Of a DNA stretch of 64,000 nucleotides, positions 1 to 58,368 are shown piece after piece. Position 1 is the first letter of the stretch. Every line of letters begins with the position of its first letter. Both the position numbers and the translations under genes were made by a program. Under the pieces are notes generated by a model, which was given only the letters and a program-made list of their open reading frames with translations, made no database searches and was not told the origin of the DNA. Source of the DNA: Naegleria gruberi (Eukaryota); assembly GCA_000004985.1 (NCBI GenBank), contig GG738895.1. The stretch is one strand, 5' to 3'.

Positions 1-251
1 GTAACTTGTTCATGTTCAATGTTGGTTATCACAATGAACATCACGATTTCCCAAAGATTCCAGGTTGCAATCTTCCAAAGTTGAAGGAAATTGCTCCTGA
101 ATATTATAACAATTTGAAGGTTACTGAATCTTGGACTTATGCTCTCTGGGAATATATTACAACTGATGGTTATACTCCATTCAACAGAGTTGCCAGAACC
201 CACGAAGATCACAAGAATGCTAGAAAGAATGACTCCAAGAAGGATCAATAA
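1..251 (+). CDS. Sphingolipid delta4-desaturase (dihydroceramide desaturase, DEGS/Des1 family), 3' fragment; the 5' end lies outside the window
   Basis: The frame is open from position 1. The translation ...NVGYHNEHHDFPKIPGCNLPKLKEIAPEYYNNL carries the third histidine box (HNEHHDFP) of DEGS-type fatty-acid desaturases. Stop codon at 249-251. Confidence 0.75.
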   Translation, partial: NLFMFNVGYHNEHHDFPKIPGCNLPKLKEIAPEYYNNLKVTESWTYALWEYITTDGYTPFNRVARTHEDHKNARKNDSKKDQ

Positions 252-390
252 TTTAATTCATCACACAGTTTTATTGTCACATTTTGAGAGGGTTGAATAA
301 AACTTGCAGCCAATTTACTTTTTAACCATATAGTACTTCTCGTTATCTTTAAATAAAGAAATAATGTACCTATTTTGATAACTCAAAAAA

Positions 391-2167
391 ATGCACAATA
401 GAAAACAAGGAGAATCACATGATATCTTTCATGACAATCTCTCATCCTCTTCACCACCAACAAATATTAGTAAATCTGCTCATCCCTCCGAAATATTAGA
501 GAATCAAGTAGACAATTCATCAGCTAAATTTAATTTACATGGCGAAACTGATTTGAATACAACAAGCAAAACAACTAGTTGCTGCTTTTGTTGTTCGTGT
601 TCTCCCTTCGGGATGAGAATGATTCGAGCGGCTTCATTGATGGGATTACTTTTACTAATAATTGCCTTCTTTGTGTGGGCTTTACCCTTGTTGCGATTGG
701 TTTATTGGAATTCGAAACACTTCTCTCAGACTGGATTGAGAATATTAGAGGCAAATTCAAAAATTAGTCCTCTGGAGGAACGAAATCTTGTAGAAAAAGT
801 GGAAAAGGAGAGTGGAATTCATTTAATTAATAGGAAAGGATTGGAATTATTTGGATTGGAATCATCTGAAATTCTGAAAGATTTCTCAGTATTGTATCAA
901 TTGAAAATTGTCATGCAAGAGAGAAGGATTGGGGATAAGCTATTTCCAATTATTGATGACATTATTGAGAATTTCTATAAAAAATTATTGATTAGACCAA
1001 GTACCATCACCAGATCCATTCATCAAACTTACAAGACAAAGGATTTAAATTTAATGCCAGAGCACTGGAAGGATTCTCCAGAAAGGTGGGTCCAATACAA
1101 AGACTTGTATGTCAATGATTATTTGGATGATAAGATTGATCCAGATTTGAGAAGGGAGGTTTCTGTTACATATAATTACAATTTATGGATTGATGAGGAG
1201 ATGGATCAATTTGTTCAATCAAGTGATTGGAAGTCAGTCTCAGAATTTAATGAGAATTATTATGACTCATTCTTTAAGAGCATTCCAATGAAAATTCAAA
1301 AGATTGATGCTATTAGATATTGTTGGCTTTCTAGAATTGGAGGTATATACAGTGATTTAGATGTTAGACCGATAAGGGATATTGAAGAGCTATTAAGATA
1401 TTTGGAACTCTACCATATCATTGAAGCATTCAAACAAAAGAATTCTAATCAAGTTTTAACATTGAAGGAAAAGTTCCACAAAATGGTTCAATACCTCAAA
1501 GATTCATTAGAAACAGGATCCAATGAATCAAAATTTGAGCCAGAATGGCAGAGTATTCAGATAGAGTTTCAGAGAATTGCAAAAATGAAACCAAAATTTT
1601 CAGCAGTAGTTCCAAAAACATATCCATTCGGAATTTCTAATGATTTTTTGATTGGGGCACGCAATTCTGAATTCTTCCAATTTGTGGTTCAGAGATCAGT
1701 GGCTGAGTTTTCTAGATGGAAGTTATTAAGCTACATTCCAATAGCTAGATATGCCTATGTTATGTTAACAGGAGGTCCACTTTTCCTCTCAGAATGTTAC
1801 AGACAGTTCACGTTAGAAAAGGCAAAGAAATGTAAGTATTGAAATGATTGCTGCAACCTCATATTTGAATAATTAAATAATAGATCAAAGAGACGGAATT
1901 GAGATAACTGGAAATGTTGCACTTATGGATTTATCAATTTATGGATCGCAACAATCATCATTTCTTGCCCATACTAAAGGCAATTCATGGCATACTTTTG
2001 AGGCACAATTTATTCTTGATTTTTGGCAGCAATTAAAGGGAACAAGCTATTCAAAATTGGGATTATATACATTAACATTAATTTTCTCAGTTATTGGACT
2101 CATTTTATTAATTAAATATATTTTCATGAGGGCAAGACAAATGAAGAGGAATGAGGAAAACGTTTGA
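391..2167 (+). CDS. Glycosyltransferase family 32 (Och1/Sur1/A4GALT-like, DXD-containing) with N- and C-terminal transmembrane anchors; 2 exons
   Basis: Proposed structure is join(391..1831,1884..2167). The first ORF ends inside a GTAAGT at 1832. A 52-nt intron (GTAAGT...AATAATAG) joins it in frame to ORF 1925..2167. The motif DAIRYCWLSRIGGIYSDLDV matches the GT32 signature DxxRxxxLxxxGGxYxDxD. There are hydrophobic anchors near residue 90 and at the C-terminus. Confidence 0.65.
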
Positions 2168-3448: not shown

Positions 3449-3519
3449 CTCGAGTGCCGGGAATTGAACCCGGGTCGCCAGAGTGACAGTCTGGAATGCT
3501 ACCACTATACCACACCCGA
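3449..3519 (-). tRNA. tRNA-Asp (anticodon GTC)
   Basis: Minus-strand sequence TCGGGTGTGGTATAGTGGTAGCATTCCAGACTGTCACTCTGGCGACCCGGGTTCAATTCCCGGCACTCGAG. The 7-bp acceptor stem pairs with one G-T wobble. The anticodon loop is CTGTCAC and the T-arm is GGTTCAATTCC. A T-run lies downstream on the minus strand (3440-3443). Confidence 0.85.
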
Positions 3520-13986: not shown

Positions 13987-14794
13987 CAAACAGGAGTGTA
14001 GGTGCTAACAAAGATGAGGCTTTTACGAGAGAGAAGGAAGGTGCTTTAGAGGCTTTTTGTTTTGATGAGCAAGATTGTTGGCTTGTCTCTTTATGGTATC
14101 GGATGGTACTGGCTTGGTAGAATGTTTAATAATAAAACTTTTGGTTCTATGAATGATCTTCTAATTGGGATTTACAATGTTGTGATGAATCAGTAAAGAG
14201 TGATTAAATGAACAATTTTGGTGATGGTAGTGGGAACTCGTAATTACATTTTTTTTAAAAAAATGTAATTTTAAAAGTAAAATTAGAATTTGCTATTATT
14301 AAGGAGACAAGCTCATTTAGAGTTTGTAGTAGATTCCTGATCAAATTGATTGATCAAAAATTAGTGGGGAAAGATTTTCTGACGATTGCTTGGTGCCATT
14401 TCTTGAAATATTGGAAAAACAAGAAAATGAATCTTTATGTTTGTACTCATCAACTCTCACGTTGGAGGAGGAGGATCTGAAATGGACTCTACAGCTGACG
14501 TCTTAATACTTATTATTAAACTTCAACTATTGGACAAGGAGTGACACAAAGGAACAATCACAAAAAATTGTTTTTATTTAAGGGAACAGGAGGTTCAATC
14601 CGAGGATCCTTAGCGGAATAATTAAGGAGTAGCAACAATTTCCACAACTTTCCGCTGCGCCTACTATAATTACAAGAATTAAAAAAACAACCTTAATAAA
14701 CCATTTATCAACTCAAAGAGAAACCGTTTGCATCAGAGGATGGAGGAAGGTCGTTTATTTTGTGCCAACTCTAAATGAGTGAGTATTCTTCAGA

Positions 14795-15796
14795 ATGTTT
14801 CTCGCTGTGATGATACTTCTCTCCATATCGATAGCCATTGAAGGAGACACTAGTGTTCACGATAATAAGGAAATTGTGTTCTATCCATTGAGAACCCATC
14901 AACAATTTGATATCCAGAATATTCCGACCTATTTTCTGGAATCTGCCTATTTTAAGGCCTATTTTGAACTCTATTATAGTGAGGATGATTTTGATTTAAT
15001 AGGAACTCATCAATTCCTTTCTGAACAAACACAAGTGAGTGAATATCCTTCCATTATTAAGAAAAACAAGCTGTTATTTCAATATGGTCTAACATGGGAT
15101 TTGACTAAGGCTCACATGAAACCAAACACTCAAAAGAATCAAACAGTTACTCTCAAATTCTATCCTCAATTCAAGTACAACATTGATCCTTACTCTGTTA
15201 GAGCCTTTTTGATAAAGCAAAGTGAAAATTTGGGAATTCAGACTCAATTCACTCCACTCTTTCCCGCTTCAGATGTTGAATCACCAACATTAGGTCCTTG
15301 GGAATGTACTTTATCTCTTCGAAATTATAACTTTGATTTGCCATTGCAATTGACAATATTTGCTTACTCAGCAGCGAGTATTGGTTATGTACCTGGAGAG
15401 GTTGTGCCAATTTACTATCCAAGGGGTGTTTCATTCTTCATGAAAGGTACATCAAATCTCAGATTAGATGTCATGTATGCTAATGCAACTGTGATAGATC
15501 CGTATGAAAGAGAGAGAGCTCCCACACTTAGTGTTAGTAGCTACAGAAAAACAGTTAACGCCCCAAGTGGTTATTTAGTGTTTACACAATTCTTTGTAAA
15601 GGAAGATTCGAATAATATCCTTGATATGGAAGAAACAAGATTATTTACCTTCAATTCAGCTCTATATGTTGGTAGTTTTACTATTGACCCCTTTTCTTTG
15701 AAGTGTGCATACGCAACCAAAGATTCAAACTTCCAAACTCTAGTTATTGATCCAACATCCTCTGTTACAATTGGCTGCCTATTCACTCACTTGTAA
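14795..15796 (+). CDS. Secreted protein, member A of a tandem paralogous family of unknown function (signal peptide; DPYS[VY]R motif)
   Basis: 333-aa ORF. The N-terminus MFLAVMILLSISIAIEG is signal-peptide-like. It shares the blocks NIDPYSVRAFL and YPRGV with the two downstream ORFs. Confidence 0.55.
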   Translation: MFLAVMILLSISIAIEGDTSVHDNKEIVFYPLRTHQQFDIQNIPTYFLESAYFKAYFELYYSEDDFDLIGTHQFLSEQTQVSEYPSIIKKNKLLFQYGLTWDLTKAHMKPNTQKNQTVTLKFYPQFKYNIDPYSVRAFLIKQSENLGIQTQFTPLFPASDVESPTLGPWECTLSLRNYNFDLPLQLTIFAYSAASIGYVPGEVVPIYYPRGVSFFMKGTSNLRLDVMYANATVIDPYERERAPTLSVSSYRKTVNAPSGYLVFTQFFVKEDSNNILDMEETRLFTFNSALYVGSFTIDPFSLKCAYATKDSNFQTLVIDPTSSVTIGCLFTHL

Positions 15797-16706
15797 TCAA
15801 GTAATACCAGATTCAGAATACGTTTTTGCACTTGTTGGTAGTGATGTGCCAAGAGATGAATGTCAGCTCTCTAGCTCATGTCCAATTCGTTCCTCCAGAA
15901 TTCAATCATATTCTGCATGGAAGATGCAATTACTTGTTTCCTTTGATAAAAACACCCAACTTCAAGGATCTATTTCAGTAAGCACTGGATCTTTAATAGA
16001 TTTCCCAGGCGCAACATTCTCTCCTACCAATCAGGGACCACTTACTCTTCTTGGTATTGTTTATTTCAATTTACAAAAAACAACCATCAAGAAACAACTA
16101 AATAATACAGACGAATTAAGGAATTCAATTATTGTAAGGGCTTTTACAAATCTAAGGGCACAACAAATGGAAGATGCCATGGTTCCTTATTCTCTTAGAT
16201 TATTCAAGTACAATTCGACCCAAAATTTGTTTGAATTAATTTCACAAGATGTTCCATTGGACTCTATTTCGAGTTTTTCTTTCGATTTGGAACAATTATT
16301 GGCCTCAAAAAGTCAGAAATTCACAATAGGATTGTGTACTTATAAGGGTACAAAAGGTGTAGTTGGAGATTTGGTTTATGCTCACTACCCGAGAATTGTT
16401 AATTTTTACCTTAACAACTTTGTAATCTTGTCAATTTACTTTAAAGCAGTTTTCACAACAGCAATCATGTACGAAAAGAGACCTTACTTTACAATTAATA
16501 ATTATGTTCCAAAAAATGTCAAGGGATTGAATGATTTTGTAATTTTACACAGTTTCATGCAACAAAATGGAAATGGATTGGAAACGATTGGATACGATGA
16601 TGGAAGAAAGTTTACCTTTCCAATAGATTCAATCTCAGGAGCATTTGTAGATACATCTGGTAGATCAGTAACTTTTAAATTTGAACATGTCAGATGTGTC
16701 TATTGA
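15747..16706 (+). CDS. Paralogous domain B of the same family; either a separate gene or a continuation of 14795..15796 after a frame disruption
   Basis: Frame +3 opens only 50 nt before the frame +2 stop of the upstream ORF. The track start is TTG, not ATG, and the first in-frame ATG is about 58 codons in. It contains VPYSLRLFKYN and YAHYPRIV, homologous to member A. Confidence 0.4.
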   Translation: MIQHPLLQLAAYSLTCNQVIPDSEYVFALVGSDVPRDECQLSSSCPIRSSRIQSYSAWKMQLLVSFDKNTQLQGSISVSTGSLIDFPGATFSPTNQGPLTLLGIVYFNLQKTTIKKQLNNTDELRNSIIVRAFTNLRAQQMEDAMVPYSLRLFKYNSTQNLFELISQDVPLDSISSFSFDLEQLLASKSQKFTIGLCTYKGTKGVVGDLVYAHYPRIVNFYLNNFVILSIYFKAVFTTAIMYEKRPYFTINNYVPKNVKGLNDFVILHSFMQQNGNGLETIGYDDGRKFTFPIDSISGAFVDTSGRSVTFKFEHVRCVY

Positions 16707-17341
16707 GCCTTGTCCGAAAACGCTTTTTTTTCGAATTTTTGAAAAAGTAAACACTCACGCTTCTTTTTCGCTTTCTCTCATCACATTTTGTTTTTTGTGT
16801 GAGCGCTGAAACAAGAGGGATTCTTTTTTGTGCGAAAGCGATTTGGATATTCTTGCCAAAACAATGGCGAGTGTTTCTTCCTTTCAACTGCAAGAAGTAA
16901 AATATTTTTATGAGAAGAGAATTTCTTTCTGGTTGGTTTCGAAAGCACTTTCGAAATTAAAAAGTCTCCATCTTAAACAAACTAGTTTTCAACAACCACA
17001 ATAACACTGATCCTAAAACTTTAGGATTAAGTAGAAGGATGTATAGAGGTTACATCCATGGAATATTTCTTCTCTGGTCTCATTATCCATCAAGTATTAA
17101 TATGTTTTCGATTTAAAATTACAATAACAATTTTCGAATTCACCTTTCTTTAACTCATAAACAACAAACAGGCCATAAATAAATGTGAGAGCTTGTTTAA
17201 CCACTTTAACTTGTTTGCGTTTCATCGTGAACATGTCCACTCACACTTGTCATTTCGATTTAAAAATTACACAACAAAAGGAGAAAAGAATCCCGGCACA
17301 AGTTTTCGAGGAGCGAAAGAAGAAAAGGCTTTTGTGAACGT

Positions 17342-18433
17342 GTGCGTTTGTTTTCGATTTTCGGGCTTTCTCACATTTTCGAAAAAAAACAGGGTTTCGA
17401 CAAGGCTCATTTATTCAAAGAAACAAACTTTGAAAAATTGGAAATTAGTCAAGGTATCACTACGCTTGACAAAAACCAATTTGTAATTGATTGCTTTGAG
17501 GATGTAAGAGATGAAACTTTTGTTTTCATGTTAATTGCCAAACCATTTATTGGAATAGTTCAAAATAATACCGCATTTGGTAATGAATATCCTGTGACAA
17601 GCACGAACACTGATTCATTCACAAGCAATATTCTCCCTTCAGATTCAATCAAGATATCTTTCAATCCGAATGGTAAATCAACAGGTAGTTATGTTTTCAA
17701 ATCAGATAAGAGAAAATATTCAGATTATCAACTTCCAACACTTCAACAGCAGCCACTCTCATTACTTGGTATGTTTATTCTAAATGGGACGAACGTAAAG
17801 CTTGGTGCCAATTATTTGGATCGCCAAGTTGACATTGTTTATGAGAAGAAGACAATGGAAAGAAACTTTGATCCATATTCGTATAGATTCTTCTCTGTTG
17901 ATGATGAAAATCAAGAATTTAAGTTATTGAATTGTGAAGATGTTCCCTCTCAAGATGAATGGAAATATTCGATTGATTTGAGCAAACAACAAAATAGACA
18001 AGTTAAATTTGCAGTATTTGGATTTAATAATATAATTGGTGAAATGAATCGTGAATATTCTATTCATTACAATAGAATGCTAAAGTTTGCTCTCTCTGAT
18101 TTGAATAGTGGACTGGAAATTTCATTTTCATCTGAATTATTTCCACAAATCAATAATGGAGTGAAATTCATTTTGAAAGAGAAACAAGATGCAACTCAAT
18201 TTAATAATTTCATGAATGTGATGAGATTTACAATTGTTCAAACAGTTAGATCAGATATATTGAGTGAAAGAAAATTCCAATACAATAACAAATTGAGTGA
18301 TATGGAAGGAAATAAGATTTCAAATTTAACAAGATTACAATGTGTTTACATTACCAACTCAGGAATAATTTATGGAACAAGTTTAGTTACCATTGAATCA
18401 AATAATCAATATACTTTACATGTAATGAAATAA
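17342..18433 (+). CDS. Paralog C of the family. It is possibly followed by a Pro-rich stalk and a transmembrane anchor encoded at 18455..18795 in another frame
   Basis: 363-aa ORF with NFDPYSYRFFS, YSIHYNRM and QCVYITNSG matching members A and B. Downstream, frame +1 encodes IVEPSPIIPPSPPQPEHSIKP...ILILGICLAIITLLAIGSLLVAIVQSMRLKGKFAVIL (stalk + TM + short tail). No clean intron joins them. Confidence 0.5.
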   Translation: MRLFSIFGLSHIFEKKQGFDKAHLFKETNFEKLEISQGITTLDKNQFVIDCFEDVRDETFVFMLIAKPFIGIVQNNTAFGNEYPVTSTNTDSFTSNILPSDSIKISFNPNGKSTGSYVFKSDKRKYSDYQLPTLQQQPLSLLGMFILNGTNVKLGANYLDRQVDIVYEKKTMERNFDPYSYRFFSVDDENQEFKLLNCEDVPSQDEWKYSIDLSKQQNRQVKFAVFGFNNIIGEMNREYSIHYNRMLKFALSDLNSGLEISFSSELFPQINNGVKFILKEKQDATQFNNFMNVMRFTIVQTVRSDILSERKFQYNNKLSDMEGNKISNLTRLQCVYITNSGIIYGTSLVTIESNNQYTLHVMK

Positions 18434-19049
18434 TATTACATGAAGAATATGATTTACAAATTGTTGAACCATCTCCAATCATTCCTCCTTCACCTCCTCA
18501 ACCAGAACACTCAATCAAACCAGATCACTCAATTAGTCCACAACCGAAACCACAACCATCACTTATTGATCCAAAACCACAAGAATCAATTAAATTGCAA
18601 CCTGTATCTTCTATAAAACCATCTCAAAGTTCAGGTATAACAAAGGATGATATTGGAAATGGATCAAAAAAAGATGAAGCAATACTCATTCTTGGTATTT
18701 GTCTTGCAATAATTACCTTATTAGCAATAGGTTCCTTACTTGTGGCCATTGTACAGTCAATGAGGTTGAAAGGCAAGTTTGCAGTCATCCTATAAATCAT
18801 CTAAAAATCAAGAAATGAAAGATCCAATGTTATGGAATATAAGTTGAATAAATTATATTAGTTGATAATGTCAATTCATCAACAGATTTTGTTTATCAAG
18901 ATTTTAAATGTTGAATTGAAAATTACAATGAAATATATTCACTATTAATAGTTGATAAATGGAGGTTCAAATAGTATTTGAAGATAATTCACAACCCAAT
19001 TTGTCCAAGTAATGGGATATGTTAGCAACACCGAAACTAGACGAAAAAA

Positions 19050-20699
19050 ATGTTAAAAAGTGGATTGTTACTTTTCACTTGTTTGTTTGTGGTTATCACT
19101 AGAGTTGAGCAAGTGTTAGCATCGACCAATGTTCAAATTGCCCACTCCCTGAACATTCCTTCAGTTTGGCAACAATTACCACTTTCCGATAATTTATCTG
19201 AAAGGGTTGTTTTAACATTTGCATTAAAAAATAGAAATGTTGAATGGTTGCAAAGAATATTCGAAAATGTGAATAATCCAATGCATAGAGATTATGAAAA
19301 ATACCTCACCATGAAACAAGTTTCCGATATAACTTCTCCTCAACAAACTAATCTCGTCATTGAATACTTGAACTCAATTCCTGACTGTTCTATATTGAAC
19401 ATTTCCAAACACGGCAATTTAATAACAGTGAAAATAAGTTTACAATCTGTAAATTTACATTTAAATGCCAAAATGAAACCATTCGTCCACAAGGAAACCA
19501 AAGAAATAATTTTCCGCTCCCTGAATGGTTTCTCTCTTCCATTGGAAATTAGTAAGATTGTGAAAACTGTTTTTGGAATTCATCATTTTCCACATGGAAA
19601 TGCAAAAAAGAAATTCACTGCTGCTCAATCTTCACATCCAATAACTCCGAAGGAAATTTGGAATAGATACAATGTCAGTTTACCAACAAGTATCAATGGA
19701 CAAAGTTCTCAGGCGATTGCTTCTCTTTTGGGACAGTTCTATAATTCAAATGATTTGAGTCAATTCCAACACATGTACAACTTGACACAAATGCAACCAA
19801 TTGTAAATGGAGATAATAATAATGGAAAACCAGGAATGGAAGCTTCTTTAGATATTCAATATATTATGGGAATTGCACAGGGAATTAATACTACAATTAA
19901 TAGTATTGCATCCAATAATATTGAAGATCCATTTGTGCAGTGGATTTCAGTAATTCAATCACAAGGAGATTCAAGTGCATGGATTCATTCAATTTCGTAT
20001 GGAGCTGTCGAGAAGGATATTCCAGCAGATGTAAAGGAAACTGTCGATCAGGAATTCCAAAAAATTGGATCAACAGGAAGAACTATATTTGTTAGTTCTG
20101 GAGATAATGGAGTCAGATGCAGTGATTATGGTGATAGATTTGAACCAGAATGGCCAACTAGTAGTCCTTTTGTTGTCTCTGTTGGAGCTACAGAATTTAA
20201 AATTAAGGGAGGAAAAATCTCAGAAATTGGAGCTGATTTCACGGGAGGTGGATTTTCAGATGCCTACAAAAGACCAAGTTATCAAGATGAAGCAGTTACT
20301 AATTATTTGAATCAAGAATCATTCCCAGATAGATCGTATTTCAATCAGAATGGTAGAATGTTTCCAGATATGACCTTAATTGGAAAAGGTTTTCAAGTAA
20401 TTCTTTCAGGAAAGGTTCAATCAGTTGATGGAACAAGTGCCAGTACACCAAGTGTAGCTGCTCTATTTTCTCTTCTCAATAATATTCGTTTCCTACAAAA
20501 TAAGAAACCAATCGGATTCCTTAATCCATGGCTCTATCAAATAGCTCCAAAAACACCAAATGCTTTCTATGATATCACAGAGGGTTATAATTCATTCGAT
20601 CCATGTCCTGGATTCTTTGCAACCAAATCATTTGATCCAGTGAGTGGTATTGGCGTACCAAACTTTGCAATTCTAAAGGATTTAATCTTGACAAAATAG
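19050..20699 (+). CDS. Secreted sedolisin / tripeptidyl-peptidase I-like serine peptidase (MEROPS S53)
   Basis: 549-aa ORF with an AAAAATG start. The N-terminus MLKSGLLLFTCLFVVITRVEQVLAS looks like a signal peptide, followed by a pro-domain. The catalytic region carries the catalytic serine motif SGTSASTPSVAALFSLLN and the residues D and E upstream. Confidence 0.8.
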   Translation: MLKSGLLLFTCLFVVITRVEQVLASTNVQIAHSLNIPSVWQQLPLSDNLSERVVLTFALKNRNVEWLQRIFENVNNPMHRDYEKYLTMKQVSDITSPQQTNLVIEYLNSIPDCSILNISKHGNLITVKISLQSVNLHLNAKMKPFVHKETKEIIFRSLNGFSLPLEISKIVKTVFGIHHFPHGNAKKKFTAAQSSHPITPKEIWNRYNVSLPTSINGQSSQAIASLLGQFYNSNDLSQFQHMYNLTQMQPIVNGDNNNGKPGMEASLDIQYIMGIAQGINTTINSIASNNIEDPFVQWISVIQSQGDSSAWIHSISYGAVEKDIPADVKETVDQEFQKIGSTGRTIFVSSGDNGVRCSDYGDRFEPEWPTSSPFVVSVGATEFKIKGGKISEIGADFTGGGFSDAYKRPSYQDEAVTNYLNQESFPDRSYFNQNGRMFPDMTLIGKGFQVILSGKVQSVDGTSASTPSVAALFSLLNNIRFLQNKKPIGFLNPWLYQIAPKTPNAFYDITEGYNSFDPCPGFFATKSFDPVSGIGVPNFAILKDLILTK

Positions 20700-30134: not shown

Positions 30135-32117
30135 ATGTTGAACAATAATAATGGAGAGGGTGATAGTTCCATGCCTAATGTAACATCATCATCATCGGAT
30201 TCGAGAGCTGATATGATGATGACACAGGAGGATGAAGGTGTTGATATTGGAGAAATTGCAAAGAAATTTAATCCAGCACAGGATGGTGATGTAGAAATGG
30301 GAGAAGCCTCTTCGTCATCTTCCGATGGTGATGAAGTTGTAAAGAGATTTGAAGTTTATTTATCACATAAATTGTCTGATAAACTTTACTTGCTACAATA
30401 TCCACTTCGTCCAAAGAATAATAATTATAATTTTCAACAATTGAAGGAAGTTAGATTTAAACCGAATCACAACAAGATGGAAATGGATTTTGAAGTGAAT
30501 ACAAGAAGCGAACATTATAATACAGATTCTGGTCAAGAATATTCTACATTTTCCCTTTCATCAACTAGTGTTCCTGTCAAGGCAAATTATGCTGTTGGTA
30601 TTCTTAGAGGAAATCAATTGCATCTTACTCCTTTGTGGAACATGTTACAATTACGTCCTGGTTTCCAACATATTAATGATGGTTATTCAACTGGAAAGAG
30701 TAAAGTTGTAAGAAAAAAGAAGGGAGAAGAAGGAGAGGAAAATGGTGATAAAAAGAATGAAGCTGTACCAAATGCTTCTCAAGGAGGTGGTATGAACTTT
30801 AGATTACAATCGGATAGAAAGGCATTGGAAAGATCATATCAATTTATGAAGGATCAAGAAAATAATGAAAAATCCATTAACTTGGCTCTCTATTCACCTC
30901 AAGACTCTAGACAACATATTGAATCACTCTTTGAACAAAGAGATGATCCTGTTAGATTTAATGTACCACCAACTGCCTATCTTAAACAATTGGTTCAATA
31001 TAGAGAAGAAGATCAATCAGCTATGGCTCAAGGTTCTTTGGGAGCAATCAAGAAAATCAAATTGGGAGAAAGACAAGTTTACTATGCCTTGTATCTTGCT
31101 AAAATTCTTCCATTCTCAAAGATTAGAGAGCTTTCAACACGTATAAAGAGTGATGAAGAAATGCTCAATGCTCTCCAGCGATATGGTGTATTTGTGGATG
31201 GTAGATGGGTTCTCAAATCAGAATTCAATGAAAAGATTATCAAATTGAAAGACTTGGATAAGAATCCTTGGACTTGTCTTAAATATCCAAAAACAGCAGC
31301 CTTTAGAGAATATTTACTTTACCTCTTCCAAACAGAAAAGAAAGTTATCAGAAAAAAGTTTGTTGAAAAGACTGGCATTGAAGCTGATAGGGCCAAACAA
31401 TTACTCGAAGAAGTTGCTGTATTAAAGAAGGTATCTCAAGACGCAGATGAAGATGATGAATTGGCTGCCTACTGGGTTCTTAAATATGACGTGGATCAAG
31501 AATTCATTGACGAGTTTAGATCATTTGCTGGTTTGACAGTCAAGCAAATGTGGACAAAGAGAGAATTGGAAATTAATAACTTGACTAATTCTAACTTTAG
31601 AGATTTATCAATTCTCTTACATGATGTTCCAAAATCAAATGCAAGAGGTGTGGGAGGTGCTACACCAAACAGATTTGTTGCTTCTGTGGAAAGTGAATTG
31701 AAATTGTTCATTACCAATACCCTTCTTGAAAATGGTGTCTGTAGTGATGTCTTACTCAAGAAGAAGAAGAATGAAAACCCATCTAAGTACATTAATAATG
31801 CTAAGGAAGAAGATTTCTTAAAAATTTTGGATGAAGTTTCTATTGAATTTAATAATGCTAGAATTATGAAGTACAGATCTGATTACTCAGAGAAGGAAAA
31901 CAAATATAGAGAGGCCATTGTAAAGGCATTTAAAGAGAACAAATATTGTCTTTCAAAGCCAAACGTTAAGGAGGTCATTAAGAATGCTTTCAATGAAGAT
32001 ATTCCACAAAACAGTTTTGTAAGAATCATGGTTGAATTGGCCATAAACGATGCAACTAACAAATGGCACGCAAAAACAGGTACTGAAGCTCTCAAACCTT
32101 CCAATACTACTGTATAA
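30135..32117 (+). CDS. DNA-directed RNA polymerase III subunit RPC5 (C37/Sin-like) homolog
   Basis: 660-aa ORF with an AAAAAATG start. The N-terminal block VKRFEVYLSHKLSDKLYLLQYPLRP is typical of the RPC5/Sin family. The centre is acidic and Lys-rich. Confidence 0.6.
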   Translation: MLNNNNGEGDSSMPNVTSSSSDSRADMMMTQEDEGVDIGEIAKKFNPAQDGDVEMGEASSSSSDGDEVVKRFEVYLSHKLSDKLYLLQYPLRPKNNNYNFQQLKEVRFKPNHNKMEMDFEVNTRSEHYNTDSGQEYSTFSLSSTSVPVKANYAVGILRGNQLHLTPLWNMLQLRPGFQHINDGYSTGKSKVVRKKKGEEGEENGDKKNEAVPNASQGGGMNFRLQSDRKALERSYQFMKDQENNEKSINLALYSPQDSRQHIESLFEQRDDPVRFNVPPTAYLKQLVQYREEDQSAMAQGSLGAIKKIKLGERQVYYALYLAKILPFSKIRELSTRIKSDEEMLNALQRYGVFVDGRWVLKSEFNEKIIKLKDLDKNPWTCLKYPKTAAFREYLLYLFQTEKKVIRKKFVEKTGIEADRAKQLLEEVAVLKKVSQDADEDDELAAYWVLKYDVDQEFIDEFRSFAGLTVKQMWTKRELEINNLTNSNFRDLSILLHDVPKSNARGVGGATPNRFVASVESELKLFITNTLLENGVCSDVLLKKKKNENPSKYINNAKEEDFLKILDEVSIEFNNARIMKYRSDYSEKENKYREAIVKAFKENKYCLSKPNVKEVIKNAFNEDIPQNSFVRIMVELAINDATNKWHAKTGTEALKPSNTTV

Positions 32118-48091: not shown

Positions 48092-50116
48092 ATGCTTCGA
48101 AACGTAAACTTTGCGCCTGTATTGCGCTCTGCCATCGCATCATCAAGAAGCAATCGTTTAGTAGTCCCTGCAACAAAACTTCAAACAAAATCATACAGCA
48201 AGGATTCTAATGATTCATTCGACCCTAGTCAACATTACGAAGTGGAGGAAGCAATGCCTTTCGTTGCTAAGAATGTAAATTTGAAAAAGACTAGAAGTTT
48301 AGTGGATTTGTTTGTTACTAAACTTGAGAAGGAAGGCGAAAAGGAAAACAAGGAGGAACAATTTTCTGAATTTGAGGCTCTTCAAAAGTCTGACAAAGCA
48401 AAGACTGTTAAAGCCCAATTTTCAAAGAAGAAAGTTAGAGAAGCTAACGATAACATCTATCAAAGAGATAGTGAGGAAGCTAAAAAATTACAACAACTCG
48501 AGAAAATTTACAATCAATCAAAGAGTGAAACCAGCAAGATACATAGACAAGATGTTATTGATATGGAAAGTAAGGAAAGAGACTCACAAACAAAAGCTGG
48601 TGATACTCTTTTGTCTTTCATGTATGAATCAAAGTCTCCACACAGAGTTGTTGAATCATGGGAACTTGAACAACAAGAAAAGGAACAAATTGCTGAGGAT
48701 TTCAAACAACACAAGAGAGATTATAAGAAACTCATCAAGAAGGACGGTTTAACTACCGAACAAGCCAACAGAAGTGAATATAACAAGCAATATGATACTG
48801 TTAGTCTCCAAAATGAAATGTTGGAAGGAATGAAGGCTATCAGCGACTACTCTTTATCTATTGATATGGACAGAATGAGTGCTTCACCAACTTCTCTCAC
48901 CGGTGATAAACTTATTCAAGTTAACAATTCTAGAAACGATCTTAAATCACCATTCTGGAATGTTCTTTCAAACCATGAAAAACGTTACTTCTTAAAGGAT
49001 GAATATCTTGAAGATATTTCAAAGAATGTTGAAAAATACGTTAACATGACTCCTGAAGAAATTGAACAACAAGCTCCATGGCTGTTGAATGATCCAAGAT
49101 GGGAAACAATAGAAGAATTGAGAAAACAAAACATTCAAGATATGTCCGAAACGACTTCTGAAGATAGAAGTAAATATGTCAGAGGTAGAATCTTTGATGA
49201 TGAAGCTCTCCGAAATCTCTATGAATCCCTCGGTTCAAAGCAATTTGATAATGTTCAAGAATTCTATGAAAATATTAAGGAAGCTACTGATGAAGAAGGT
49301 TTGCTGAGGAAATTAGAAACTGTTTTCCCAAATATTTCTAAAGATAAGCTCAAGTCAATCTTGGACAAGGTTGTTAAAACTATTCAACCAAAGTATGAAA
49401 AGTATGCTACACCAGTTCAAAGAACTATTCAACTCATCACAGACGAAATTACTGAAACTGCTAAGCCAACCATTTACACAATGGCTGATTTGGCCTCTAA
49501 ACCAAAGCCAAAGATGCAAACTGTTTTGTGGTCAATAAGACAAATTGCTACTAAGAAAGCTAAGGAAAGAGAAGTTGAATTGGTACATGAAAGAGCAAAG
49601 ACATTGAAACGTGAAGATTATACTTCTCCAATTGATCATATTTATGAAGTTTTGCGACCAATCCACGACGAATCCATGAAGGCTGGTGATGAAAAGAGTG
49701 GTGTTTCTGAATTCCATCCTGCTATCTATGGTGGTTATGTTGTTGCAACTGGTAAGAGAAAGTCTTCTATTGCCAATGTCAAGTTGTCACCAGGTACTGG
49801 TATTTTCTTGATTAACAACAAGTCATATCTTGACTATTTCAATCTTTCTCGTCATCATTACAAGTTGATGCTTCCATTGAAGTTTACTGATACATTAAAT
49901 CAATTTGATGTTGAATGCAGAGTTCACGGAGGTGGTCAAACTGGTCAATGTGACGCCATTTTCTTGGGATTAGCTAAGGCTCTTGCTAAGTTTGTTCCAG
50001 AATACGGTCCAACTTTGGAAGCCACTGGATTCCTTTTCAGAGATCCACGTTCTGTCGAAAGAAAGAAATTCGGTCAACCAAAGGCCAGAAAACAATTTAC
50101 TTTTGTCAAGCGTTAA
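48092..50116 (+). CDS. Mitochondrial ribosomal protein uS9m with an N-terminal extension of about 540 aa
   Basis: 674 aa with an AAAAAATG start and MLRNVNFAPVLRSAIASSRSNRL presequence. The C-terminal 130 aa (GGYVVATGKRKSSIANVKL...RVHGGGQTGQCDAIFLGLAKAL...KKFGQPKARKQFTFVKR) is the universal uS9 domain. Confidence 0.8.
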   Translation: MLRNVNFAPVLRSAIASSRSNRLVVPATKLQTKSYSKDSNDSFDPSQHYEVEEAMPFVAKNVNLKKTRSLVDLFVTKLEKEGEKENKEEQFSEFEALQKSDKAKTVKAQFSKKKVREANDNIYQRDSEEAKKLQQLEKIYNQSKSETSKIHRQDVIDMESKERDSQTKAGDTLLSFMYESKSPHRVVESWELEQQEKEQIAEDFKQHKRDYKKLIKKDGLTTEQANRSEYNKQYDTVSLQNEMLEGMKAISDYSLSIDMDRMSASPTSLTGDKLIQVNNSRNDLKSPFWNVLSNHEKRYFLKDEYLEDISKNVEKYVNMTPEEIEQQAPWLLNDPRWETIEELRKQNIQDMSETTSEDRSKYVRGRIFDDEALRNLYESLGSKQFDNVQEFYENIKEATDEEGLLRKLETVFPNISKDKLKSILDKVVKTIQPKYEKYATPVQRTIQLITDEITETAKPTIYTMADLASKPKPKMQTVLWSIRQIATKKAKEREVELVHERAKTLKREDYTSPIDHIYEVLRPIHDESMKAGDEKSGVSEFHPAIYGGYVVATGKRKSSIANVKLSPGTGIFLINNKSYLDYFNLSRHHYKLMLPLKFTDTLNQFDVECRVHGGGQTGQCDAIFLGLAKALAKFVPEYGPTLEATGFLFRDPRSVERKKFGQPKARKQFTFVKR

Positions 50117-51794: not shown

Positions 51795-52553
51795 ATGAAA
51801 CAACGCATTGTCAAGCCAACATTTCAAACCAATTCCTTTCTCATAGAGGATGATCAAGAAGAAGATAACCTCACTACCAGTCCATCATCACCAAATCCAC
51901 CAATAGAGAATACATCTCAAGGATCAGACCCAGCAGAAAATCCAGAAAATAGTGACTTTAGTGATTGGAAGAAAAAAGAAAAGAAGAAAATGAGTAGAGC
52001 TGCACAATTCGCAAATGCCAAAGCTTCAGGTGTTTTACTATTCAGAACATTCAACAATTGTCCAGACTCTTTAGAATTTCTCTTGGGGAAACACTCCAAA
52101 ACAAACTCGTGGGAAAATTTTGCAGGTAAAGTTAATATGGGAGAAACAGTGGAAGAAGCAGCTCTACGAGAATTGCAAGAAGAAACTCTAAACCAATTCA
52201 GTGAAGAGCATGTGAAAATGGTGGCATCTCAATTGAACATTGAAAGAGCTTTTTTCATTAAAGTTAATCAATCAAATCAAGCAATGTTTCTTGTTCATTT
52301 GAATGATTTTGAACCAGATTTAGAAGAATGGAAGAGAAAAGCTGAAAGATTGAAAAGTGAAAATAGAAAGGTTGAACTTTCTGAATTTAATTTTTTCAAG
52401 GAATTTCCACTCCAAGAATTGAGAGTTCCACACCTTCAAGAATTCATCCCAAAAAAGAGAAACGACATTATGAAAATGGCTCTAGAAATAATTAAGTGCC
52501 CAACAAGGGAAACATCATCAACTAAGCACAATGTTACAAAGAGAAATAGATAA
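51795..52553 (+). CDS. Nudix hydrolase
   Basis: 252 aa. The Nudix box is GKVNMGETVEEAALRELQEETL, matching Gx5Ex7REUxEExGU. Confidence 0.65.
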   Translation: MKQRIVKPTFQTNSFLIEDDQEEDNLTTSPSSPNPPIENTSQGSDPAENPENSDFSDWKKKEKKKMSRAAQFANAKASGVLLFRTFNNCPDSLEFLLGKHSKTNSWENFAGKVNMGETVEEAALRELQEETLNQFSEEHVKMVASQLNIERAFFIKVNQSNQAMFLVHLNDFEPDLEEWKRKAERLKSENRKVELSEFNFFKEFPLQELRVPHLQEFIPKKRNDIMKMALEIIKCPTRETSSTKHNVTKRNR

Positions 52554-55548: not shown

Positions 55549-55620
55549 CTCCCGTGCCGGGAATTGAACCCGGATCTCCTGGGTGAGAGCCAGGTATCTT
55601 AGCCATTGGACCACACGGGA
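55549..55620 (-). tRNA. tRNA-Glu (anticodon CTC)
   Basis: Minus-strand sequence TCCCGTGTGGTCCAATGGCTAAGATACCTGGCTCTCACCCAGGAGATCCGGGTTCAATTCCCGGCACGGGAG. Perfect 7-bp acceptor stem. Anticodon loop CTCTCAC. T-arm GGTTCAATTCC. TTTT lies downstream. Confidence 0.85.
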
Positions 55621-55710: not shown

Positions 55711-55782
55711 GGGGACCAGTGGGAATCGAACCCACGCCCTCTCGCACCCAAAGCGAGAATCATACCACTAGACCATGGTCCC
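55711..55782 (-). tRNA. tRNA-Pro (anticodon TGG)
   Basis: Minus-strand sequence GGGACCATGGTCTAGTGGTATGATTCTCGCTTTGGGTGCGAGAGGGCGTGGGTTCGATTCCCACTGGTCCC. Its D- and anticodon arms are identical to the canonical eukaryotic tRNA-Pro(UGG). A TTTCCTTTTT terminator lies downstream. Confidence 0.9.
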
Positions 55783-56736: not shown

Positions 56737-58272
56737 TTATTGTCCCTTGATACGATTGTAACATAGATGAGAATATCCACAACATTCCAACACAAAATCA
56801 ACATCATCCCAATATGTATCTCTAATTAATCCAAGAACTTGATGATTTCTCTCAATACACTTTTTCATAATATCTTTCTTTGATTTCATTGATTTTGGAA
56901 GATGTTGATATACCATTGCGTTCGCAGCCATACATTCACTAATGAATTTTACATCGCCTTTGATGCTTGGATCAATGTGAGGAAATACAGTTGGATTAAC
57001 CTTAATGGCATTCAAGAGGAGTGATCGATCTTTGATTGTGGAAATGTACTTTGGAAATTCACTCAAATAGCTCAATGACTTGCTTAGTAGAGCTTGAATA
57101 ATTTCTGTATCATCTTGGAATTCTTTGTATTTGTAAAACAAATGGTGTGATTTTGAAATTATTGTTAGAATTATTTCTCTATCCTTCTGGAATTGAGTTG
57201 GAAAAGAGAAATATGCATTTGGACACATTTCTGCAAGTTTCAAGTGGAATTGTCTACTATGCTTTAGTTTTGCACTAATTAATGGATATACACTCAAAGG
57301 ATCTGACATTATGGCTTCAAGATAAAGCTCTTCATCCTGGTCAAACAAGCAATATTGAAGAGCTCTGGGATTGGCTTTAACCATTTCTCTCATTAGATAT
57401 CCATCATTTTTTCTTTCAAAATCTAAATAGTTCAATATATTAGGTTGTACCTTTACAACACTCAATAGAAAATCTCTGTCATAGTATAATTGACTATCAA
57501 TATCAAGTAATTTTTCTGGAAATGCCTTTAAGTAATTCATAACAATCTCTTTGTCAGATTGTAATCTCTGATCTACATATACTAAATAAGTAAATATTTG
57601 AGAATGCAATTGAACTGCTTCTAAAATAATTTCTCTCCATTTCACAACATCTTTACATTGAGATATAAGCACAGGATTATTGCTCAACACTTTTAAAATT
57701 GCTTTTTTATCCATTTCCAAATCATAACAATCCAAACTATTGATTGAAGAAACTAAATATTTTACAATTTCAATATCATTTGTAATGAGTGCCTTATCAG
57801 TCACATAATCCACAACTTTACAATTATTCCTCACAGCTTCCAACACTAATTCTCGATCAGCTCTCAATTTCACATCAGCATATTTCAACAACCATCCATC
57901 AATCTTGACTAATTTCATGAATAATTGCTTATTACTCTGTAGTGATTTGTCCATGAAGGAAATTGCTGTTTTTTCATTACAAATTGCTTCATAGACAAGA
58001 GAAGCATCTCTCCGAATATTTTCATCAGCATATTTCAAAGCAATTCCCTTCTTTTTCACAACTTTGAACATCCAATCCCGATCGGAGGAGATGGCCTTCA
58101 CAAGTGTTTGCAATCCACCACGACAGTTTATCAAATTTTCAAAGAGGATGGTTTTGTAAATTTCCAATCTTCTATAATCTATGGAGAGGTACTTTTTTCG
58201 TAGCCAAAAGGACCCGAGAGGTGCATCAGAGAGAAGAATTTTCACTGGAATTTCTTCATCAAATTGTTGCAT
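56737..58272 (-). CDS. DUF4116-repeat protein (511 aa)
   Basis: The track start 58305 is TTG. The first ATG is 58272 (MQQFDEEIPVKILLSDAPLG..). It carries at least 8 tandem repeats of about 45-50 aa of the type ALKYADENIRRDASLVYEAICNEKTAISFMDKSL / LLKYADVKLRADRELVLEAVRNNCKVVDYV, characteristic of DUF4116. Confidence 0.6.
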   Translation of the reverse strand: MQQFDEEIPVKILLSDAPLGSFWLRKKYLSIDYRRLEIYKTILFENLINCRGGLQTLVKAISSDRDWMFKVVKKKGIALKYADENIRRDASLVYEAICNEKTAISFMDKSLQSNKQLFMKLVKIDGWLLKYADVKLRADRELVLEAVRNNCKVVDYVTDKALITNDIEIVKYLVSSINSLDCYDLEMDKKAILKVLSNNPVLISQCKDVVKWREIILEAVQLHSQIFTYLVYVDQRLQSDKEIVMNYLKAFPEKLLDIDSQLYYDRDFLLSVVKVQPNILNYLDFERKNDGYLMREMVKANPRALQYCLFDQDEELYLEAIMSDPLSVYPLISAKLKHSRQFHLKLAEMCPNAYFSFPTQFQKDREIILTIISKSHHLFYKYKEFQDDTEIIQALLSKSLSYLSEFPKYISTIKDRSLLLNAIKVNPTVFPHIDPSIKGDVKFISECMAANAMVYQHLPKSMKSKKDIMKKCIERNHQVLGLIRDTYWDDVDFVLECCGYSHLCYNRIKGQ

Positions 58273-58368
58273 TTTTTCTAAAATTGGAAAGAAAAAATTG
58301 TACAAAATATTTACAAATTTATTTAATAATTTAAATTACACTCGCTTCTAACTATATACTATTAATAA

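What the first reader, a model, noticed from the sequence alone, without database searches (positions are those of the whole stretch)
14795..18795. Tandem array of three paralogous secreted/membrane domains of unknown function, with a frame disruption
The ORFs 14795..15796, 15747..16706 and 17342..18433 share conserved blocks (DPYS[VY]R[AF]F, YxHYPR, C-terminal CxY). The first has a signal peptide. The second opens in another frame 50 nt before the first one's stop and has no ATG for about 58 codons. This could be a two-domain protein with a frameshift or sequencing error, or a pseudogenised copy. The third lacks a signal peptide at its track start. It is followed in a different frame by a Pro-rich stalk, a strong TM helix and a short basic tail (18455..18795) with no clean intron connecting them. 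I recognise no known domain, so this looks like a lineage-specific surface-protein family that is expanding by local duplication.
Basis: seen in the sequence. Interest (0 to 1): 0.65.

Follow-up and report, generated by a model that had tools for sequence, protein, structure and literature searches.

The report
Transposon-broken surface-protein pseudogene in Naegleria
The three "paralogous ORFs" are the three internal repeats of one Naegleria gruberi membrane-protein gene, now broken by a small transposon and two tiny frameshifts. It is a decaying copy of an orphan surface-protein family, not an expanding gene array.

Summary
In detail: ORFs 14795-15796, 15747-16706 and 17342-18433 are weak but real paralogues, with two frame breaks and a Pro-rich stalk, TM helix and tail.

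The window is Naegleria gruberi. GenBank annotates the ORFs as three separate predicted proteins (NAEGRDRAFT_72164, 72165, 72166).

They are one gene. Three small repairs give a 1,098-aa type I membrane protein: signal peptide, three ~300-aa units, Pro-rich stalk, TM helix and short tail. It aligns in a single HSP (E 7e-52) with the intact N. gruberi paralogue NAEGRDRAFT_69472.

The lesions:
- **Junction 1:** a 2-nt deletion at about 15768. An independent contig from a related strain carries the two bases.
- **Junction 2:** a 704-bp element at 16705-17408, with 44-nt terminal inverted repeats and a 3-bp ATT duplication. Precise removal restores the frame.
- **Junction 3:** a 1-nt frameshift at about 18407-18414.

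The related strain shares the element but has its own TGG>TGA nonsense codon. pN/pS is 0.40, against 0 nonsynonymous and 10 synonymous changes in the neighbouring gene. This is a pseudogene.

The parts
14795..14845 (+). Start codon and predicted signal peptide (MFLAVMILLSISIAIEG)
   Evidence: ATG ORF start. Hydrophobic N-terminus, KD about 1.7-1.8 over residues 1-21.
14846..15768 (+). Repeat unit 1 (frame 2), up to the 2-nt deletion site
   Evidence: Homologous to units 2 and 3 and to unit 1 of NAEGRDRAFT_69472. Identical to annotated protein NAEGRDRAFT_72164.
15765..15770 (+). Lesion 1: 2-nt deletion. The window has TTACAATT; the related strain has TTACACAATT. This shifts unit 1 out of frame with unit 2.
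   Evidence: Alignment of independent contig L002 with the window shows 2 extra bases here. L002's called gene 3..632 reads straight through this point. No GT..AG intron restores the frame without deleting conserved codons.
15769..16704 (+). Repeat unit 2 (frame 0), ending in ...FEHVRCVY; the last base is the first base of the split Leu codon
   Evidence: Best match is unit 2 of the paralogue, 104 bits, E 2e-30. The annotated NAEGRDRAFT_72165 is only its C-terminal 179 aa, starting at an internal ATG.
16702..16704 (.). Left copy of the 3-bp target-site duplication, ATT
   Evidence: Read directly from the sequence. The same ATT is present in L002.
16705..17408 (.). Lesion 2: 704-bp non-coding insertion with terminal inverted repeats (16705-16747 and 17366-17408). 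It supplies the TGA that ends ORF2. Probably a non-autonomous DNA transposon.
   Evidence: - 44-nt TIR, 77% complementary, by far the longest inverted repeat in the region.
- In L002 the outermost 15 nt are perfectly complementary.
- It holds 13 of the window's 51 TTTCGA motifs, against 0.42 expected (p 1e-15).
- Its ends pair when folded, z -3.5.
- No Rfam hit.
- Removing 16705-17411 fuses the frames and restores ...RCVYLFKETNF..., homologous to ...KCAYATKDSNF... of unit 1 and ...SCVYVLKSENS... of the paralogue.
17409..17411 (.). Right copy of the 3-bp target-site duplication, ATT
17412..18409 (+). C-terminal tail of unit 2 (LFKETNFEKLEISQGITTLDKNQ) followed by repeat unit 3 (frame 2)
   Evidence: Best match is unit 3 of the paralogue, 69 bits. 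The annotated NAEGRDRAFT_72166 starts at internal ATG 17528.
18407..18414 (+). Lesion 3: inferred 1-nt frameshift (frame 2 to frame 1) between ...ESNNQ and YFTCNEIILHEEYDLQIV...
   Evidence: Frame 1 is open from 18406. It reads the conserved unit-start motif with its cysteine, as in YSLTCNQVIPDSEYVFALV, FVIDCFEDVRDETFVFMLI and LTCSKYVGGDYTMYIV in P0014. The repair gives a Cys-Cys spacing of 27, against 30 and 30 at the other two junctions. L002 does not cover this site, so it is inferred only.
18412..18465 (+). Terminal inter-unit segment (YFTCNEIILHEEYDLQIV), frame 1
18466..18633 (+). Pro/Ser/Gln-rich stalk
   Evidence: Translation. Aligns with the Pro-rich stalk of the paralogue.
18679..18753 (+). 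Single transmembrane helix (AILILGICLAIITLLAIGSLLVAIV)
   Evidence: Kyte-Doolittle 19-residue windows up to 2.94.
18754..18795 (+). Short basic cytoplasmic tail (QSMRLKGKFAVIL) and TAA stop

Best explanation
Window 14795-18795 is a single gene of Naegleria gruberi, now a pseudogene.

**Ancestral protein.** It encoded a type I membrane protein of about 1,100 aa: signal peptide, three divergent ~300-aa all-beta repeat units, a Pro-rich stalk, one TM helix and a 13-residue basic tail. It belongs to a tiny orphan family whose intact N. gruberi member is NAEGRDRAFT_69472.

**How it broke.** A 704-bp non-autonomous TIR element inserted into the end of unit 2. It duplicated ATT and introduced a TGA stop. 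The insertion predates the split of two N. gruberi strains. After that the copy drifted. The sequenced strain gained a 2-nt deletion between units 1 and 2 and a 1-nt frameshift between unit 3 and the stalk. The related strain gained a TGG>TGA nonsense codon instead.

**Effect on annotation.** Gene predictors consequently called three fragments as separate genes.

**What is shown:** the single-gene architecture, the insertion, the 2-nt deletion, the independent nonsense mutation and the relaxed constraint.

**What is inferred:**
- that the element is a transposon (copy number not measurable here);
- the exact nature of lesion 3;
- the ancestral function, probably a cell-surface adhesion or receptor glycoprotein, judged from topology and beta-sandwich-like modules only.
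For: - **Organism.** A neighbouring ORF is 100% identical to an N. gruberi predicted protein.
- **Annotation.** The three ORFs equal NAEGRDRAFT_72164, 72165 and 72166, with consecutive accessions on one 333,733-bp scaffold.
- **One gene.** Three minimal repairs give one 1,098-aa ORF. The earlier 1,091-aa repair is collinear with NAEGRDRAFT_69472 in one HSP of 964 columns, E 7e-52, crossing all three junctions.
- **Positional orthology of units**.
- **Junction cysteines.** Pairs are spaced 30, 30 and 27 residues after repair.
- **Element.** TIR and TSD; TTTCGA motif enrichment.
- **Independent contig L002** (97% identical). It carries the same element at the same site, two extra bases at junction 1, and a private nonsense codon. 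The element interior differs by several indels and a 62-bp inversion, while the coding parts differ only by substitutions.
- **Relaxed constraint.** 12 nonsynonymous changes plus 1 stop against 8 synonymous in the target; 0 against 10 in the adjacent sedolisin gene. Fisher p = 0.0016.
- **Introns do not explain the breaks.** The two clear spliceosomal introns inspected in the window have GTATGT/GTAAGT donors and are about 40-62 nt. No such intron spans the breaks without deleting conserved residues.
Against: - pN/pS of 0.40 is below 1 (binomial p = 0.044 against strict neutrality). Inactivation may be recent, or some constraint may persist.
- No empty-site allele and no second copy of the element were found in the window or in JGI metagenomes. 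Mobility of the element is therefore inferred from its structure only.
- Lesion 3 has no independent sequence support and could be a sequencing error.
- No transcript data could be consulted.
- In-frame GT..AG combinations exist around each break, so rescue by cryptic splicing cannot be formally excluded.
Confidence: 0.8

Rival explanations
1. Three independent, functional genes, as in the public annotation (NAEGRDRAFT_72164, 72165, 72166): a local tandem array of paralogues.
For: The annotation exists. Each fragment is an open frame of 300 aa or more. Pairwise identity between units is low, about 24%, as could be expected of old tandem duplicates.
Against: - ORF2 has no ATG for 59 codons, and ORF2 and ORF3 have no signal peptide.
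- Only ORF1 has a signal peptide, and only the far 3' end has the TM anchor.
- The N-terminus of ORF3 is translated TIR.
- The junction sequences are homologous to the intra-protein unit junctions of the intact 1,183-aa paralogue.
- In the related strain, units 1 and 2 are in one frame.
Confidence: 0.04
2. A still-functional single gene. The 704-bp element is removed from the mRNA as an intron derived from the transposon (like an introner), and the two small frameshifts are sequencing errors or are bypassed by cryptic splicing.
For: - In-frame GT..AG pairs exist, e.g. GTAACT(16668)...CAG(17392), 725 nt, and GTCTAT(16698)...AAG(17404), 707 nt. Others exist at junctions 1 and 3.
- pN/pS of 0.40 is below 1.
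- Lesion 3 is unconfirmed.
Against: - The element's own ends are GAGCC...GGCTC, not GT...AG.
- Every in-frame GT..AG option deletes conserved residues, including the CxY motif or the unit-start Cys.
- The donors differ from the GTAAGT/GTATGT seen in the two inspected introns of this window, and those introns are only about 40-62 nt.
- The related strain carries a private nonsense codon in unit 2, which no splicing of the element would cure.
- The 2-nt difference at junction 1 is in non-repetitive sequence.
Confidence: 0.1
3. Assembly or sequencing artefact: the gene is intact in the organism and the breaks are errors of this assembly.
For: The 2-nt and 1-nt lesions are small. The first is absent from an independent contig.
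Against: The largest lesion, the 704-bp element with its in-frame TGA, is reproduced at the same site in an independent metagenome assembly of a related strain. That strain also has its own nonsense mutation. Elevated nonsynonymous divergence relative to the neighbouring gene is not an assembly artefact.
Confidence: 0.05

Closest known systems
NAEGRDRAFT_69472 (XP_002675378.1 / D2VKQ1), uncharacterised 1,183-aa predicted protein of Naegleria gruberi
   Same: Same architecture and order: N-terminal hydrophobic signal, three ~300-aa units with the DP[YF]S.R, YPR and C.[YF] motifs, Cys-containing inter-unit segments, Pro-rich stalk, single TM helix and cytoplasmic tail. Collinear over 964 columns, 25% identity, E 7e-52. 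Units are positionally orthologous.
   Different: The paralogue is an uninterrupted ORF. It has an extra ~100-aa beta-rich module between stalk and TM, and a longer tail. The window copy lacks that module and carries three disabling lesions.
P0014, 524-aa protein from metagenome contig ENA ERZ27315067 (locus L003), unknown organism
   Same: Signal peptide, one copy of the same unit (E 1e-23 to the profile; 50-81 bits to the window units), the LTC...DY.MYIV post-unit segment, Ser/Pro stalk, TM helix and tail.
   Different: It has one unit rather than three. It has the extra membrane-proximal module seen in NAEGRDRAFT_69472. By eye its DNA looks more G+C-rich than the window's (not computed), so it is probably from another species.
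MITEs: non-autonomous cut-and-paste DNA transposons (e.g. Tourist/PIF-Harbinger-type elements with 3-bp duplications)
   Same: Small size (704 bp), no coding capacity, imperfect terminal inverted repeats, a 3-bp direct duplication of the target, reiterated short subterminal and internal motifs (TTTCGA), and insertion into a gene with exact restoration of the frame on conceptual excision.
   Different: The duplication is ATT, not the TWA typical of PIF/Harbinger (from general knowledge of that superfamily). No transposase partner and no other copy could be examined, so the superfamily is unassigned and copy number unknown.
ZU5 / GAIN subdomain B / FIIND beta-sandwich domains (ankyrin 3f59, CD97 9mqr, UNC5B 3g5b, CARD8 7jkq)

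Membership tests
Orphan Naegleria three-repeat type I membrane protein family (NAEGRDRAFT_69472-like; unnamed) | ~300-aa unit with the conserved DP[YF]S.R.F, Y[PN][RKQ] and C.[YF] blocks, detectable by profile | tested here: met
   Profile of the three window units hits NAEGRDRAFT_69472 (E 2.6e-35, 4 stretches) and P0014 (E 1.1e-23).
Orphan Naegleria three-repeat type I membrane protein family (NAEGRDRAFT_69472-like; unnamed) | Signal peptide, then repeats, Pro-rich stalk, single TM and short tail, collinear with the intact member | tested here: met
   Single HSP of 964 columns, E 7e-52, after three minimal repairs. Hydropathy.
Unitary/duplicated pseudogene | Disabling lesions relative to an intact homologue | tested here: met
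   A 2-nt deletion, a 704-bp insertion with an in-frame stop, and a 1-nt frameshift.
Unitary/duplicated pseudogene | Independent lesions in a related lineage and relaxed selective constraint | tested here: met
   L002 has a private TGG>TGA and lacks the 2-nt deletion. pN/pS is 0.40, against 0N:10S in the neighbouring gene, Fisher p 0.0016. Strict neutrality is not reached (p 0.044).
Unitary/duplicated pseudogene | No functional transcript or protein | not testable with these tools
   No RNA-seq or proteome data for N. gruberi were accessible.
Non-autonomous TIR DNA transposon (MITE-like) | Terminal inverted repeats at both ends | tested here: met
   44 nt, 77% complementary in the window. The outer 15 nt are perfect in L002.
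Non-autonomous TIR DNA transposon (MITE-like) | Target-site duplication flanking the TIRs; excision restores the target | tested here: met
   ATT at 16702-04 and 17409-11. Removing 16705-17411 restores a frame and a junction homologous to the other units and the paralogue.
Non-autonomous TIR DNA transposon (MITE-like) | Multiple dispersed copies in the genome, and/or an autonomous partner with matching TIRs | not testable with these tools
   Only one copy in the 64-kb window. No match in JGI metagenome contigs. The N. gruberi assembly itself could not be searched.
PIF/Harbinger superfamily | 3-bp TSD of the form TWA (TTA/TAA) | tested here: not met
   The TSD is ATT. The feature definition comes from general knowledge of the superfamily.
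Spliceosomal intron / introner | GT...AG boundaries that remove the insert and leave the conserved coding sequence intact | tested here: not met
   The element ends are GAGCC...GGCTC. All in-frame GT..AG pairs delete conserved codons and have donors unlike GTAAGT/GTATGT.
Any Pfam-A family / any PDB sequence family | Significant HMM match | tested here: not met
   0 Pfam families for the three ORFs at E up to 0.01 and for the paralogue at E up to 1. P0014 gave only a sub-threshold match, PF12191, E 0.0098, 16.7 bits against a 24.9-bit cut-off. 0 PDB sequences at E up to 10 with the 7-unit profile.
ZU5 / GAIN-like beta-sandwich fold | Structural superposition with a significant score on a confident model | tested here: inconclusive

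The most novel reading that the evidence does not exclude
Two readings are not excluded.

(a) The 704-bp TIR/TSD element may belong to an undescribed DNA-transposon family of Naegleria. It could still be removed from the transcript through cryptic GT..AG sites, as intron-forming transposons ('introners') are. The locus would then capture a transposon turning into an intron in a heterolobosean.

(b) The ~300-aa unit may be a new extracellular module distantly related to the ZU5/GAIN autoproteolytic beta-sandwich fold. That would place such a fold in a free-living excavate's surface proteins.
Probability: 0.08. Interest if true: 0.55.

Novelty: new member of a known kind. Interest (0 to 1): 0.27.

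Why it matters
- **Annotation.** Three GenBank/UniProt 'predicted proteins' (NAEGRDRAFT_72164, 72165, 72166; D2VT40, D2VT41, D2VT42) are fragments of one dead gene. They should not be counted as a gene-family expansion or used as independent orphan proteins.
- **Transposon biology.** The locus gives a dated example of a small TIR element disrupting a gene in Naegleria. The insertion is shared by two strains and was followed by strain-specific decay. The element's sequence can be used to look for the rest of its family.
- **Protein family.** It defines a very narrowly distributed three-repeat surface-protein family. Its intact member, NAEGRDRAFT_69472, is the one worth studying for amoeba surface biology.

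None of this challenges current understanding.

Tried and rejected
1. **Lesion 3 as a 20-nt insertion.** I first read it as a 20-nt insertion flanked by a 7-nt direct repeat (TTACATG at 18416-22 and 18436-42). I rejected this. Frame 1 is open from 18406 and encodes the conserved unit-start motif with its Cys (YFTCNEIILHEEYDLQIV). The 20-nt repair would delete that motif, so a 1-nt frameshift is more parsimonious.

2. **Lesion 1 as a 1-nt insertion at 15776.** I used this for the first reconstruction. The independent contig shows instead a 2-nt (AC) deletion at about 15768.

3. **Short introns or ciliate-type eliminated sequences at the breaks.** I rejected these. The organism is Naegleria, and the two clear introns inspected have canonical GTAAGT/GTATGT...AG boundaries. 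The GT..AG enumeration found no clean solution.

4. **The search for homologous proteins.** The 1,090-aa reconstruction returned nothing, and the 7-unit profile returned only P0012. This is a limit of the word index, not absence: the exhaustive HMMER search found the annotated fragments and two homologues.

5. **AF2 with a 3-sequence alignment** failed (pLDDT 31).

6. **Metagenome DNA scans** for the TIR and for the insertion-site flank found nothing.

7. **Exact-protein look-ups** for the N. gruberi genome locus and the paralogue locus were not on record.

8. **afdb50 fold library** was unavailable.

9. **Rfam** gave no hit in 14500-19000.

10. **Literature.** No paper mentions these locus tags, and none found describes Naegleria MITEs or introners.

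Full report
**1. What is in the sequence**

The three ORFs exist as described: 14795-15796, 15747-16706 and 17342-18433. They are weak but genuine paralogues:
- BLASTP E 4e-5, 4e-10 and 5e-3 at about 24-26% identity.
- Shared blocks DPYSxRxF, [YH]Y[PN]R and CxY.

ORF2's frame opens 50 nt before ORF1's stop, and its first ATG is at 15924. A different frame, open 18406-18795, encodes a Pro-rich stretch, one strong hydrophobic helix and a short basic tail. None of the ORFs matches a Pfam family.

**2. Organism and existing annotation**

The window is eukaryotic:
- 33% G+C and dense long ORFs on both strands.
- RGS, C2CD5, kinase, RPC5, DUF4116 and sedolisin domains.
- Canonical short introns: GTATGT...TATAG of 62 nt in a kinase gene, and GTAAGT...CAAAG of about 40 nt.

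The RPC5 ORF (30135-32114) is 100% identical to a 'predicted protein [Naegleria gruberi]' on a 333,733-bp scaffold.

An exhaustive profile search and the cluster look-up show that the public annotation treats the region as three genes:

| Locus tag | Length | Corresponds to |
|---|---|---|
| NAEGRDRAFT_72164 | 333 aa | ORF1 |
| NAEGRDRAFT_72165 | 179 aa | ORF2 from an internal ATG |
| NAEGRDRAFT_72166 | 301 aa | ORF3 from ATG 17528 |

**3. It is one gene**

*Junction 2: the inserted element.* Between ORF2 and ORF3 lies a discrete 704-bp element, 16705-17408.
- It has 44-nt imperfect terminal inverted repeats (16704-16747 and 17366-17409, 77% complementary). These are by far the longest inverted repeat in the region.
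- It is flanked by a 3-bp direct repeat, ATT (16702-04 and 17409-11).
- Its first bases complete the TGA that ends ORF2.
- Deleting the element plus one ATT (707 nt) joins ORF2 to ORF3 in frame.
- The restored junction...RCVYLFKETNFEKLEI..., is homologous to unit 1's ...KCAYATKDSNFQTLVI....
- The first ~23 codons of 'ORF3' are therefore translated element, not protein.

*Junction 1: the 2-nt deletion.* An independent 2,739-bp contig (L002) is 97% identical to window 15291-18022. It comes from metagenome ERZ929261 and evidently from a related N. gruberi strain. It has two extra bases here (TTACACAATT against TTACAATT), which put units 1 and 2 in one frame (...SSVTQLAAYSLTC...). Its called gene reads straight through the site.

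*Junction 3: the 1-nt frameshift.* Frame 1 is open from 18406 and reads YFTCNEIILHEEYDLQIV. This matches the conserved Cys-containing unit-start motif: YSLTCNQVIPDSEYVFALV, FVIDCFEDVRDETFVFMLI, and LTCSKYVGGDYTMYIV in a homologue. A 1-nt frameshift within about 18407-18414 is therefore the most economical repair.

*The repaired protein.* With these three repairs the locus encodes a 1,098-aa protein with:
- a hydrophobic N-terminus;
- three units;
- Cys pairs at the three unit junctions spaced 30, 30 and 27 residues;
- a stalk, one TM helix and a 13-residue tail.

**4. Comparison with the intact paralogue**

The profile search of 1.84 billion representative proteins returned only five hits. Three are the fragments above. 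The other two are:
- NAEGRDRAFT_69472, 1,183 aa, E 2.6e-35, four matched stretches.
- A 524-aa metagenomic protein, P0014, E 1.1e-23.

The first reconstruction (1,091 aa, with the AC repair at junction 1) aligns with NAEGRDRAFT_69472 in a single HSP of 964 columns (E 7e-52). That HSP runs through all three junctions and into the Pro-rich stalk.

Units match position for position: W2 with P13_2 at 104 bits, W3 with P13_3 at 69 bits, and P13_1's best partner is W1. The three-unit layout is therefore older than the duplication that produced the two N. gruberi genes. It is not a recent local expansion at this locus.

**5. It is a pseudogene**

The related strain's contig carries the same element at the same site with the same ATT duplication. 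In that strain the right end has one extra G, which makes the outer 15 nt of the inverted repeat perfect.

The same contig lacks the 2-nt deletion and has its own TGG>TGA nonsense codon in unit 2 (window 15918-15920). So the insertion predates the strain split, and each strain then acquired different disabling mutations.

Divergence between the two strains:

| Region | Differences |
|---|---|
| Element interior | Several indels (aligner-dependent: 6, 12 and two 1-nt gaps outside the inversion in the blastn alignment; 43 gap columns in the global alignment) and a 62-bp inversion |
| Coding parts of the target | Substitutions only: 12 nonsynonymous + 1 nonsense, 8 synonymous; pN/pS 0.40 |
| Adjacent sedolisin gene | 0 nonsynonymous, 10 synonymous |

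The target differs from the sedolisin gene at Fisher p = 0.0016. Constraint is clearly relaxed. The ratio is still somewhat below neutrality (binomial p 0.044), which fits recent inactivation.

**6. Nature of the insert**

Features that fit a non-autonomous cut-and-paste DNA transposon (MITE-like):
- No coding capacity and no Rfam match.
- Its ends pair when folded (z -3.5).
- It holds 13 of the window's 51 TTTCGA motifs, against 0.42 expected (p about 1e-15). Such reiterated motifs are typical of transposase-binding repeats, which is an inference.
- TIRs, a 3-bp duplication and exact restoration of the host frame.

The ATT duplication does not fit the TWA rule of PIF/Harbinger, so I leave the superfamily open.

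I could not measure copy number. There is no second copy in the window and none in JGI metagenome contigs.

**7. Could the breaks be introns?**

I enumerated every GT..AG pair that restores an ORF at each junction. In-frame options exist, for example 16668 GTAACT...17392 (725 nt). But:
- All of them delete conserved residues, either the CxY motif or the unit-start Cys segment.
- Their donors are unlike the GTAAGT/GTATGT of the two inspected introns in this window.
- For the element they would be more than ten times longer than those two introns.

The private nonsense codon in the related strain also cannot be cured by splicing. Rescue by splicing is therefore unlikely. It can be settled only with transcript data.

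**8. What the protein family is**

No Pfam family matched the three ORFs or the paralogue. P0014 gave only a sub-threshold match (PF12191, E 0.0098, 16.7 bits against a 24.9-bit cut-off). A 7-unit profile found no PDB sequence at E up to 10.

AlphaFold2 failed with three sequences (pLDDT 31). With the 7-unit alignment it gave an all-beta model of unit 2 (pLDDT 69.7, pTM 0.62).

- Various carbohydrate-binding beta-sandwiches.

Foldseek against PDB found nothing at E below 1e-3.

The topology is signal peptide, large repeated beta-rich ectodomain with 7 N-glycosylation sequons, Pro-rich stalk, single TM helix and short tail. This points to a cell-surface adhesion or receptor glycoprotein. That is inference from architecture only. 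The ZU5/GAIN resemblance is a lead, not a membership call.

**9. Verdict**

It is wrong about a tandem array expanding by local duplication.

The locus is a single, transposon-disrupted and decaying copy of a small Naegleria-restricted membrane-protein family, currently mis-annotated as three genes. This is an ordinary kind of object, a new member of a known kind. It has modest value for annotation and for finding the transposon family.

Noticed in passing
window 16884-16945 vs L002 1603-1664: Inside the inserted element, a 62-bp segment is inverted between the sequenced strain and the related metagenomic strain (98% identical in reverse orientation). L002 has about 13 extra bases next to it. 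Several indels also lie in the element interior (43 gap columns in the global alignment).
   Followed up: partly
window 19050-20699 (+), L001: The adjacent sedolisin/kumamolisin-type serine peptidase gene (Pro-kuma_activ + Peptidase_S8) has a signal peptide. Its protein is identical in the related strain despite 10 synonymous differences. I used it as the purifying-selection control.
   Followed up: yes
window 52197-52394 (+), inside ORF 51795-52553: Weak tblastn match (29% over 72 aa, E 0.004) between unit 3 of the reconstructed protein and this unrelated-looking ORF. Probably compositional.
   Followed up: no
window 3449-3519 (-), 55549-55620 (-), 55711-55782 (-): Three nuclear tRNA genes: Asp-GTC, Glu-CTC and Pro-TGG. 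The last two lie 90 nt apart.
   Followed up: no
window 56737-58305 (-): A 522-aa ORF made of at least five DUF4116 repeats (E 3e-55).
   Followed up: no
window 48092-50116 (+): A 674-aa ORF whose only recognisable domain is a C-terminal ribosomal protein S9/S16 (residues 554-674). The ~550-aa N-terminal extension has no Pfam match.
   Followed up: no
method note (vs 47): The word-indexed protein search missed NAEGRDRAFT_72164, NAEGRDRAFT_72166 and NAEGRDRAFT_69472. The exhaustive HMMER search found all of them. A 'no hits' result from the indexed search should not be read as absence for queries like this one; why it missed them was not tested.
   Followed up: yes
L003 (ENA ERZ27315067, 2,166 bp), gene 302-1876: A single-unit member of the same family from an unidentified organism; its DNA looks more G+C-rich by eye (not computed). 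It has a ~100-aa membrane-proximal beta module that NAEGRDRAFT_69472 shares and the window copy lacks.
   Followed up: partly
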